A stretch of DNA of 64,000 bases, taken from positions 17,422,001 to 17,486,000 of the forward strand of contig OZ024758.1 in NCBI GenBank assembly GCA_964016885.1, written 5' to 3'. The notes under the pieces are model-generated. The model did no database searches. It saw nothing but the letters and a program-made list of their open reading frames with translations, and was not told the origin of the DNA. Origin of the DNA: Eledone cirrhosa (lineage: Eukaryota). The translations under genes were made by a program, and so were the position numbers. This document shows positions 4,941-63,248 of the stretch, one piece after another. Numbering within the stretch: position 1 is the stretch's first letter; every line of letters starts with the position of its first letter.

Positions 4941-5239
4941 GTGACGCTGATATATCAGCCTTTTAATTTTTTAGTCAGATTTACATAGGAAATTACAAAA
5001 AGGGGACTAATACATTAACCCTTTTGTTACCATATTTATGGGGACCACTGAAGTAGCGTTCATGTTACAGTCCTCATCAAATGAGTTCTCTCATTTGTTA
5101 ATCCTTCTTCCACACTACACTACATGGAATACAACCTTGAAACCTTCACATCCCAGGCAAGGCTCTGTGTGCAACACTGGATAGGTGTGGTGTAGAGACT
5201 TGATAAGAAGAAGACAGTATTTATAATGAAGGATCGACA

Positions 5240-16212: not shown

Positions 16213-16284
16213 TCCTCGGTAGTATAGTGGTAAGTATCCCCGCCTGTCACGCGGGGGACCGGGATTCGATTCCCCGCCGGGGAG
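16213..16284 (+). tRNA. tRNA-Asp-GTC: tRNA-Asp (anticodon GTC) with G53>A in the T-stem/B-box; possibly weakened or pseudogenic
   Basis: TCCTCGGTAGTATAGTGGTAAGTATCCCCGCCTGTCACGCGGGGGACCGGGATTCGATTCCCCGCCGGGGAG, 72 nt, closely matches metazoan tRNA-Asp; TTTT Pol III terminator at 16295-16298. Confidence 0.93.
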
Positions 16285-21966: not shown

Positions 21967-22311
21967 TGGAGGCACATAGCTTAGTGGTTAGAGCATTGGC
22001 CTTGCAATCGAAAGGTTGTGAGTTCAATTCTCAGACCGGGTGATGTGTTGTTTCCTTGAGCAAGACACTTTATTTCACATTGCTCCAGTTTACTCAGCTG
22101 TAGAAATGAGATGATAGGGACTGGGGTCCATATCATTCCACTGCAAAGTGGTTGTGCAGGTGCCACGGCAAAAAAGCACCCAGCACACACTGTAAATGAG
22201 GTTGGTGTTAGGAAGGGCATCCAGCTGTAGAAATCAAGCCAGAATCAGTTCCCGTCCCACCCTTACAAGCAGGGAAAAAGCGGACGTAAAATGAAATGAT
22301 GATGATGATGA
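21967..22311 (+). mobile_element. SINE family B, full length
   Basis: Near-identical to 16301-16691 but with one fewer 48-bp internal unit. Confidence 0.9.
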
Positions 22312-58838: not shown

Positions 58839-58966
58839 ATGTAGGAGGTGAGTTTTATTGTAGTACAATAAAGCAATGCAGATATCGGATAAGAAGCACT
58901 CTACAGTTTGTAGGACTGGAGTATGCATAATATAAGATCAAAAGATGGTTAAAGGAGTTCCATGTA

Positions 58967-59033
58967 TTTTATTATGCGCATTTCAAAAACAAACATCATC
59001 ATGCAATAATATTTGTGTTTTCATCAGATAAAA
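58967..59033 (-). ncRNA. Type I hammerhead ribozyme motif (H1-related), left arm of palindrome
   Basis: Reverse complement of 59156-59222. Confidence 0.8.
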
Positions 59034-59155
59034 CAGGAGAACATGATATGAAGGCTAAAAAACACTTGTGGATAGTGCAGTTTTAAATCAACATATGTTG
59101 ATTTAAAACTGCACTATCCACAAGTGTTTTTTAGCCTTCATATCATGTTCTCCTG

Positions 59156-59222
59156 TTTTATCTGATGAAAACACAAATATTATTGCATGATGATGTTTGA
59201 TTTTGAAATGCGCATAATAAAA
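59156..59222 (+). ncRNA. Type I hammerhead ribozyme motif (H1-related), predicted cleavage after AUA at 59216
   Basis: TTTTAT-CTGATGA-long stem II (AAACACAAATATTAT/ATGATGTTTGATTTT)-GAA-ATGCGCAT (perfect palindrome)-A-ATAAAA. Confidence 0.82.
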
Positions 59223-59499
59223 TACATGGAACTCCTTTAACCATCTTTTGATCTTATATATATTTATATATATATATATCCAACCAGCAGGAGACCCAAG
59301 GGTAGACCCCGAGCAAGTTGGTTGAATAACATCCATGGGCTTGGCTGGTCTCGCTTGGGAATCCAGCCTTATAATTTGGAGACGGTTGCTTCTGACAAGA
59401 CCTGCTGGAAGGAGTGTTTGAAGACTCATTTCCCAAGACCCTCTCAGGAATAAGTGGGCGACGACGACGAGGAGTTATATGAAATAATCTGATAGTAAG

Positions 59500-59605: not shown

Positions 59606-59790
59606 TGGATTGGCAGTATCGGTAGAGGGTCGGACGCCATGCTTTCCAGCATAGTTACGTCCCTTTACGATCCGAGTTCAAATCCCGCCGAGGTTGACTT
59701 TGCCTTTCATCCTTACGGGGTCGATAAAATAAAAGTACCAGTAATGCACTGGGTAATTTGCTGGCCTTGTGCCTAAAGTAGAAACAATTT
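59606..59790 (+). mobile_element. SINE family A, near-consensus copy
   Basis: Family A match. Confidence 0.9.
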
Positions 59791-61304: not shown

Positions 61305-62425
61305 ATACACCAGATCCGAATACAGAGGAACCAAAGTCCCACTGTCATCGCCTCCATCTCTCTCGCCCTCCCCATCTCTCATGTACACCAGGTCCTGATA
61401 CAGAGGAGCCGAATTCCCACTGTCATCATTTCCATCTCTCTCGTACACCAGGTCCTGACACAGAGTAGCTGAACTCCCACTGTCATCGCCTCCATCTTAT
61501 TCGCCCTCCCCATCTCTCACGTACATCAGGCCCGAATACAGAGGAACCAAACTCCCACTGTCATGGTTTTCCATCTCTCACGTATACCAGGCCCGAATAC
61601 AGAGGTAACCAAACTCACACTGTCATTGCTTCCATCTCTCACGTACACCAGGCCCGAATACAGAGGTAACCAAACTCCCACTGTCATTGCTTCCATCTCT
61701 CACGTACACCAGGCCCGAATACAGAGGAGCCGAACTCCCACTGTCATTGCTTCCATCTCTCACGTACACCAGGCCCGAATACAGAGGAACCAAACTCCCA
61801 CTGTCATTTCTTCCATCTCTCACGTACACCAGGCCCGAAAACAGAGGAACCAAACTCCCACTGTCATTGCTTCCATCTCTCACGTACACCAAGCCTGAAT
61901 ACAGAGGAACCAAACTCCCACTGTCATTGCTTCCATCTCTCACGTACACCAGGCCCGAATACAGAGGAGCCGAACTCCCACTGTCATTGCTTCCATCTCT
62001 CACGTACACCAGGCCCGAATACAGAGGTAACCAAACTCCCACTGTCATTGCTTCCATCTCTCACGTACACCAGGCCCGAATACAGAGGAGCCGAACTCCC
62101 ACTGTCATTGCTTCCATCTCTCACGTACACCAGGCCCGAATACAGAGGTAACCAAACTCCCACTGTCATTTTTTCCATCTCTCACGTACACCAGGCCCGA
62201 ATACAGAGGAACCAAACTCCCACTGTCATTGCTTCTATCTCTCACGTACATCAGGCCCGAATACAGAGGAACCAAACTCCCACTGTCATTGCTTCCATCT
62301 CTCACGTACACCAAGCCCGAATACAGAGGAACCAAACTCCCACTGTCATGGCTTCCATCTCTCACGTACACCAGGTCCAAACACAGAGGAGCCGAACTCC
62401 CACTGTGATCCTCACCATCTCTCAC
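61305..62425. repeat. 60/61-bp GC-richer minisatellite (~18 units)
   Basis: Unit CTGTCATTGCTTCCATCTCTCACGTACACCAGGCCCGAATACAGAGGAACCAAACTCCCA; diverged units at both edges. Confidence 0.95.
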
Positions 62426-63248
62426 TATTATGTGCAAATGGAGGAAGCGCCATCGATACTGCAATGAAGACGTAACACGGAGAAACACAGAAACACAAGA
62501 GGCATATGTAAGTGTACACAGCTGCTTTCAAATCACAAAGTTGTGTACAAGCACAGTTCCGATACAGAACCACAGTGAAAGCATTCTAGTTTTGTTGAGC
62601 GAACGACAAAGTTAAGTTCTTTCAACGAAAGGCGTGTTCCTCCATTTCCACGTAGTATCTTCATTGTAGTATCGAATTTAACAATATATTGCATACAAAC
62701 AGAATATCAAATATACAGTTTATAACAATAATGAATATCAAATCTTATGTAGTTTATAATAATATTTTAACAATATTAATAAGAGTATACTAACAAGAAT
62801 AAACACTTTAACCGGCTTTGTTTCTTTGCTCTCCATTACTTTGAAATCCTATTAAACGTAATACACGGTGGAATGGTGTGAGAGTCGTATTATTTATCAC
62901 GTGATTTATCTTGTGCCTAAAAGTAGAAACAATTATTTATCACGTGATTTATCTTGTGCCTAAAAGTAGAAACAATTATTTATCACGTGATTTCTCACGT
63001 AACGTTATTGACGGAACATTAATCCTAAACGTTCAATGGTGGTTTCTGTTTGTTAATTAGTGAAATATCCAGGTTCTTTTGTTGTTTTTCTTACTGTGTT
63101 GTTCGCTAATGTCATCTACAAATGTATGAATTGGGATAAATTCTCCCGACGTATTTTTCTATAACTTCTCAAAGGAATCTCTCTTGTGTGTGTGTGTATA
63201 TATATATGAGAATAAACGTGCTGCGTGGTTGCTAATTGGTTACATATC

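What the first reader, a model, noticed from the sequence alone, without database searches (positions are those of the whole stretch)
58930..59259. 330-bp spacerless palindrome with an intact hammerhead in each polarity
Seen: near-perfect palindrome with intact cores and a perfect ATGCGCAT stem III, so transcription from either strand gives essentially the same RNA: antisense ribozyme, then sense ribozyme. The full transcript would form a 165-bp duplex masking the ribozyme; transcripts starting near the centre would leave it free. Known: Penelope-like elements often leave inverted pseudo-LTR copies, and long palindromes are unstable, so this is likely young. Inference: strongest lead for an active fold-back ribozyme element family; also a possible dsRNA/siRNA source.
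Basis: partly seen in the sequence, partly recalled or inferred. Interest (0 to 1): 0.85.

Follow-up and report, generated by a model that had tools for sequence, protein, structure and literature searches.

The report
Mirror-image stub of Penelope-like retrotransposon
This palindrome is one of about 1,500 mirror-image stubs of a jumping gene's ribozyme-bearing end that all fold at the same point, likely because the element's enzyme copies one RNA twice, from both cut DNA strands, back to that RNA's probably capped start.

Summary
Observation confirmed: 58930-59259 is a spacerless palindrome (165-bp arms, one mismatch) with a minimal type-I hammerhead core on each strand. It is part of a 421-bp insertion (58839-59259) in (TA)n: two head-to-head copies of the pLTR end of a Hydra-clade Penelope-like element, one carrying a 91-bp tail. 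Copies with intact ~800-aa ORFs exist in the genome. 1,515 junctions fold at this same centre, 795 without a spacer. Centres differ between copies of one haplotype, so the palindrome is likely rebuilt at each insertion and is not a self-copying fold-back element. Twenty of 100 unselected arms start at exactly one base (59093), often behind an extra G; 47 of 50 palindromes have the tail on one arm only; both arms share subfamily variants. Best reading: priming from both DNA nicks on one RNA, each copy running to a probably capped 5' end, then joined. The cap, the transcription and ribozyme cleavage are untested, and 0 of 19 tail-to-ORF copies that reach this base start there. Inverted pLTRs and opposite-strand hammerheads are published; the fixed start is not in the papers I found. 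This scan noted similar stubs in another genome.

The parts
58784..58836 (.). (TA)n target microsatellite, left side
   Evidence: sequence
58839..58929 (-). 91-bp 'tail': the element's sequence between the pLTR end and the ORF leader, present on the left arm only
   Evidence: follows the arm in other copies and precedes the ORF
58930..59094 (-). left arm: pLTR 3' segment in reverse orientation, with the family-majority T at the one mismatch
59095..59259 (+). right arm: pLTR 3' segment without tail; A at 59200 is a sporadic one-arm change that opens one stem II pair
59093..59096 (.). self-complementary ATAT overlap at the centre; 59093 (+) and 59096 (-) mark the inferred RNA 5' end
   Evidence: 20 of 100 unselected arms start here; joints converge here in contigs of public runs
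59154..59224 (+). minimal type-I hammerhead motif, palindromic stem III, predicted cut after 59216
   Evidence: core intact in 91 of 104 sampled arms; activity untested
58965..59035 (-). mirror hammerhead motif, predicted cut after 58973 on the - strand
   Evidence: symmetry, fold; activity untested
59260..59279 (.). (TA)n target microsatellite, right side
   Evidence: sequence

Best explanation
This is a short head-to-head insertion of the pLTR end of a Hydra-clade Penelope-like element into (TA)n, likely made by priming reverse transcription from both nicked DNA strands on one source RNA and joining the two copies at that RNA's probably capped 5' end. Shown: parent element, target, one-sided tail, fixed start base, one source haplotype for both arms, variable centres. 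Inferred: the endonuclease cuts both strands; one 3'-OH starts at the tail end and the other at the arm end (both end in TA-like letters); both copies run to the RNA start at 59093; their self-complementary ATAT ends anneal (spacerless form) or join with a few extra bases, often a cap-derived G/C. The hammerhead is a passenger that lies inside the copied stretch; its cut does not set the ends.
For: Parent: RT (YRDDG) plus C-terminal endonuclease upstream of the arm; 6 of 21 long loci have an intact 798-809-aa ORF between two pLTRs. Fixed start: 20 of 100 consecutive arms on C1 begin at position -2 and 33 at -4..+4, against about 0.23 per position over 5-132; 16 of those 33 lack a full partner arm, and other micro-palindromes in the arm hold 0-1 ends. 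Extra G: the native base before the start is C; genome-wide G 2,143, A/T 2,191, C 6,986; 0 of 30 G-arms have native upstream sequence; G in 13 of 22 arms at centres judged unambiguous by eye (P=7e-4 against 0.25); all 6 distinct listed joints at 59093/59096 with letters between have G/C next to the start (33 rows not shown). L1 full-length insertions carry such a G from the cap (PMC11702581, passages). Two primings: tail on exactly one arm in 47 of 50 palindromes, on both in 0; the tail-less arm reaches further 5' in 21 of 28 unequal pairs (read by eye; P=0.013), so each arm holds sequence the other lacks. One source: 15 discordant calls at 19 subfamily sites against 321 expected. In vitro an anole PLE cuts and extends both strands, and two RT start sites bound the tail (PMC11167929).
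Against: No RNA evidence for the start or a cap. 0 of 19 tail-to-ORF copies whose pLTR reaches this base start there (Fisher P=8e-5 against 33 of 71), so these are not copied to this end; the RNA may be a separate short transcript. In the commonest one-base centre (ATAT-N-ATAT, 265 loci, G/C in 48 of 50 listed) the G can be the complement of the other arm's native C, and in several truncated joins it lies in a microhomology. Among the 20 unselected -2 arms G is 9, T 7, A 4. In 7 of 28 pairs the tail arm is the longer one, and the subsets alone are not significant (9:3 for large margins, P=0.15; 7:4 short pairs, P=0.55). Arm concordance could also come from gene conversion or from two RNAs of one locus.
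Confidence: 0.6

Rival explanations
1. One cDNA runs to the RNA end, snaps back on its own ATAT/CATATG end and copies itself (or self-primes on an antisense template, as proposed for rotifer Penelope), giving the second arm without a second nick-primed event.
For: Explains identical arms and the self-complementary centre; proposed for palindromic junctions in PMC3846280 (Discussion).
Against: A self-copy cannot hold sequence the first strand lacks, yet in 21 of 28 unequal pairs one arm has the tail and the other reaches further 5'; extra G lies at the sense 5' end on both kinds of arm (14 tail-less, 11 tailed). It needs a later deletion in most unequal pairs.
Confidence: 0.2
2. The palindrome is a non-autonomous fold-back element that is transcribed and re-inserted as a unit.
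For: 795 loci share the exact spacerless centre; a unit transcript would also give a one-sided tail.
Against: 21 centre types in 50 loci; 9 centres in 10 loci of one haplotype and the spacerless centre in many haplotypes; a continuum of unequal and long head-to-head copies with the same layout.
Confidence: 0.08
3. The fixed start is a processing site or RT stop in a longer RNA, not a capped transcription start; the extra G is terminal-transferase C or microhomology.
For: Tail-to-ORF copies read through the site (0 of 19 stop); part of the G excess is ambiguous; I saw no TATA box or DPE by eye.
Against: The site fits an initiator-like TTCA+1TA context (consensus recalled); PLE transcription starts inside the pLTR (PMC2377424, PMC6765202, passages); no hammerhead cut or hairpin lies there.
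Confidence: 0.1
4. Assembly artefact (fold-back chimera).
For: No contig spans this exact locus.
Against: Different flanks, family tail on one side, 1,515 junctions, centre crossed by a contig of a public run.
Confidence: 0.02

Closest known systems
Hydra-clade Penelope-like elements (Craig et al. 2021, PMC8557442), including Hydra-1_Obim and Penelope-13_HM
   Same: C-terminal endonuclease, DKT, CxCx5C, CxxC and CxH motifs, (TA)n target, hammerhead near the 3' end; Penelope-13_HM has an inverted 5'-truncated copy and a hammerhead on each strand
   Different: unit about 3.6 kb with a long repetitive 3' UTR against <3 kb; RWI for RWK; hammerhead sequence unlike that listed for Hydra-1_Obim; 91-bp tail against 30-40 bp; a large class of stubs with one fixed centre is not mentioned in what I read
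Inverted pLTR/tail insertions of Adineta vaga Penelope (Arkhipova et al. 2013, PMC3846280)
   Same: head-to-head pLTRs, palindrome at the junction, tail on one inverted pLTR
   Different: few copies there, explained by self-priming on an antisense template; here about 1,500 junctions at one base with extra G and unequal arms favour two sense-primed copies
[quoted passage not shown]
   Same: type I, short palindromic stem III, predicted dimer; opposite-strand pairs 100-700 bp apart were noted in Schistosoma
   Different: long AU-rich stem II, AUA cut triplet; in a palindrome the two motifs are on opposite strands and cannot dimerise in one transcript
L1 twin priming (as described in PMC11702581)
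   Same: works like it: second RT primed from the other DNA end; extra G at a complete 5' end
   Different: L1's two copies cover adjacent parts of the RNA; here both cover the same stretch, and the second start site is fixed
Non-LTR retrozymes (bioRxiv 10.64898/2026.07.22.740005)
   Same: short non-coding PLE-derived sequence with a type-I hammerhead
   Different: retrozymes are direct tandem arrays; this is inverted and shows no sign of its own replication

Membership tests
Penelope-like element, EN+ | single ORF with RT and GIY-YIG-type endonuclease linked to the repeat | tested here: met
   6 of 21 long loci with intact ORF between pLTRs; YRDDG and LIY..YFG motifs. Pfam found nothing in the two family proteins and only a sub-threshold GIY-YIG in 1 of 5 homologues
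Penelope-like element, EN+ | pLTRs, inverted 5'-truncated copies, optional tail | tested here: met
Hydra clade | DKT, CxCx5C linker, CxxC and CxH, no CCHH, C-terminal endonuclease | tested here: met
   absence of CCHH judged by eye from the alignment
Hydra clade | N-terminal RWK motif | tested here: inconclusive
   RWI in this family; RWK in 7 of 9 aligned homologues, RWR and RWM in the other two
Hydra clade | (TA)n insertion preference | tested here: met
   (TA)n on both sides in 37 of 50 palindromes, on one side in 11, not found in 2
Hydra clade | groups with Hydra references in an RT tree | not tested
   no named reference proteins were fetched
type-I minimal hammerhead | CUGANGA, GAAA and UH core with stems I-III | tested here: met
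   core intact in 91 of 104 arms; core columns 99.2% conserved against 96.0% elsewhere; 4 of 4 common stem variants keep the pair, all transitions, chance about 0.59 each; no Rfam match
type-I minimal hammerhead | self-cleavage | not testable with these tools
   only 1 of 100 unselected arms and L196 start at the base after the cut: no enrichment
self-replicating fold-back element | centre inherited with the haplotype | tested here: not met
non-LTR retrozyme | direct tandem monomers, each with a hammerhead | tested here: not met
   arms are inverted; no other family copy in the window

The most novel reading that the evidence does not exclude
Penelope-like elements integrate by obligatory two-ended priming: a dimeric enzyme copies one capped RNA from both target nicks at two fixed start sites, and these roughly 1,500 stubs are the genomic record of both copies reaching the cap. 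This would explain the inverted pLTR and the one-sided tail of all EN+ PLEs without an antisense template, and it maps the promoter to one base.
Probability: 0.4. Interest if true: 0.7.

Novelty: new member of a known kind. Interest (0 to 1): 0.45.

Why it matters
The locus itself is an ordinary PLE by-product. The family matters because how PLEs form inverted structures and tails is still open (PMC8557442 calls for in vitro work; PMC3846280 proposes antisense self-priming; the main text of PMC11167929 shows two-strand extension but does not discuss inverted copies). Here thousands of copies, intact ORFs, a one-base candidate start and two fixed RT start sites make the rival models directly testable. 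About 1,500 hairpin-forming loci are also a possible dsRNA source, untested.

Tried and rejected
Rfam: no hammerhead hit; miRNA hits only reflect the hairpin. Free folding of one arm is no better than shuffles (z -1.3 to 0.03). A DNA search with the tail found nothing (the tool skips common words). Pfam and PDB gave nothing useful for the ORF. No RNA holder listed, so expression was not tested. Hammerhead cut as the source of 5' ends: no enrichment. A at 59200 as a subfamily marker showing two templates: rejected, it is on one arm only in 8 of 10 two-arm loci chosen for it (plus 1 A/G, 1 A/A) and in 1 of 104 sampled arms, so it is sporadic. The body-based map failed (ruler error) and was redone. 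Rows dropped: L075, L081, L141, L144 (degraded) from the concordance and stem counts, which include 5 centres picked from other lists and the window; L154, L165 (no tail) and two equal pairs from the long-pair count. Lunse et al. 2017 was not held. Paper searches that found no description of a fixed-start, extra-G PLE stub; the library lacks most subscription papers, including Arkhipova 2006 and Evgen'ev and Arkhipova 2005, which I did not see.

Full report
Observation. The palindrome is real: centre 59094|59095, 165-bp arms, one mismatch at 58989/59200. Each strand carries a minimal type-I hammerhead motif (stem I 59154-61/59217-24, CUGAUGA, a 36-nt stem II, GAA, ATG-CG-CAT, predicted cut after A59216). 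Rfam does not score it. In 104 sampled arms the core is intact in 91 and core columns are 99.2% conserved against 96.0% elsewhere; all 4 common stem variants keep the pair, which is weak evidence because they are transitions. The full 330-nt RNA would be a -267 kcal/mol hairpin; the stem III 8-mer can pair with itself at -10.5 kcal/mol, as a dimer-type ribozyme needs. The unit is larger than reported: 58839-59259, with a 91-bp tail on the left arm and (TA)n on both sides.

Parent element. The arm is the 3' end of a retrotransposon of the window's own 3-Gb genome: a 24-mer near its end occurs 19,901 times. Upstream of the arm lie an RT and a C-terminal endonuclease. Of 21 long loci, 6 have an intact 798-809-aa ORF in the order pLTR-tail-ORF-pLTR. 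The motifs DKT, CxCx5C, CxxC and CxH and the (TA)n target match the Hydra clade as defined in PMC8557442 (passages; supplement part 2 of 59); RWK reads RWI and the unit is longer than usual; no tree was built. The listed hammerhead of Hydra-1_Obim is a different sequence, so this is another family. The host looks octopod: an Argonauta hians protein is among the named homologues, and the nearby SINE is recalled as an octopus one; neither fixes the species.

A family of stubs with one centre. 1,515 junctions join two arms head to head at this position with at most 20 bases between the two 16-base anchors; 795 have the exact spacerless 26-mer. In 50 consecutive ones on C1 the tail is on one arm in 47, on neither in 3, on both in none, and there are 21 centre types. 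Ten loci of one haplotype have nine centres, so the centre is likely rebuilt at each insertion. Both arms of a locus share subfamily variants (15 discordant against 321 expected; 0.6% median divergence within and 5.1% between loci). The window's single mismatch is typical, so the locus is of ordinary age for the family.

The fixed start. In 100 consecutive arms found by a 3' pattern, 20 begin exactly two bases before the centre (59093), 33 within -4..+4, 29 are scattered over 12-132, and 38 extend further upstream. Sixteen of the 33 have no full partner arm, and other micro-palindromes are not hot spots, so the site behaves as a template end. A non-native G often precedes it: 2,143 arms genome-wide, none of 30 inspected with native upstream sequence, 13 of 22 arms at unambiguous centres, and G/C between the sides in the 6 distinct listed joints of public-run contigs (X1 and X2 are one sample, possibly the assembly's own). 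In L1 such a G records the cap (PMC11702581, passages), and PLE promoters lie in the pLTR (PMC2377424 and PMC6765202, passages). Against this: the G of the commonest one-base centre can be the complement of the other arm's native C, some joins place it in a microhomology, and none of 19 tail-to-ORF copies that reach the site starts there. The RNA may therefore be a short transcript from a 3' pLTR, with long copies made from tandem or circular templates. No RNA run was listed.

Mechanism. Long head-to-head copies with variable junctions show the same one-sided tail, so the stubs are the limiting case of the normal insertion route. In 21 of 28 unequal pairs the tail-less arm reaches further 5' (by eye; P=0.013, subsets not significant alone), and several tail-less arms are joined to a tail-only partner. 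Each arm then holds sequence the other lacks, which one self-copying cDNA cannot give without a later deletion. An anole PLE cuts and extends both DNA strands in vitro, starts RT at two internal sites that bound the tail, is predicted to be a dimer, and does not need hammerhead cleavage (PMC11167929, parts 1-2 of 4). I infer two primings on one source RNA, the tail-primed copy displacing the other for a variable distance; when both reach the RNA start their ATAT ends anneal and give this palindrome. Snap-back or antisense self-priming (PMC3846280, passages and Discussion) is the main rival. The hammerhead cut does not mark ends (1 of 100).

Known and new. Inverted pLTRs, one-sided tails and junction palindromes (PMC3846280, PMC8557442), hammerheads in pLTRs and opposite-strand pairs (PMC4209133, part 1 of 4; Penelope-13_HM) are published. 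I read part 1 of 5 of the retrozyme preprint; PMC12910113 (passages) added nothing. Eight searches found no account of a fixed start with an extra G or of two-ended priming for PLEs, but key subscription papers and most supplements were not seen. Two earlier notes of this scan describe similar stubs in a shark-like genome; I looked after forming my reading, and they are not independent proof.

Verdict. A real feature and a new member of a known kind. Confidence is about 0.95 that it is a PLE insertion product and 0.6 in two-ended priming to a capped end. Interest 0.45, for the testable mechanism and not for the locus.

Noticed in passing
window 5029-5108 (+): HDV-like ribozyme scored above gathering threshold by the Rfam CPEB3 model (40.7 bits); probably belongs to another retroelement.
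   Followed up: no
window about 58062-58440 and 59612-59785: Three copies of a tRNA-like SINE beside the finding (direct repeat D19); recalled as an octopus SINE, not tested.
   Followed up: no
window 16213-16284 and 21977-22034: tRNA or tRNA-derived matches.
   Followed up: no
L157, L169, L171, L172: Near-perfect head-to-head copies 1.6-3.0 kb long whose two arms stop at almost the same place in the element, as if both copying runs ended together.
   Followed up: partly
L196 (G000:C1:331692652-331695681): A copy leading into the ORF begins at the base right after the predicted hammerhead cut, with two more pieces starting at 122; a possible trace of cleavage in vivo.
   Followed up: partly
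L099, L100, L147: Centres with repeated 8-base units of the arm's first bases, suggesting repeated slippage at the template end.
   Followed up: no
L038 locus, about 1-860: Fragments of a second, diverged Hydra-like ORF (CNCR..CPL motif) next to the main copy.
   Followed up: no
window 61549-62450: Tandem array with a 60-bp unit.
   Followed up: no
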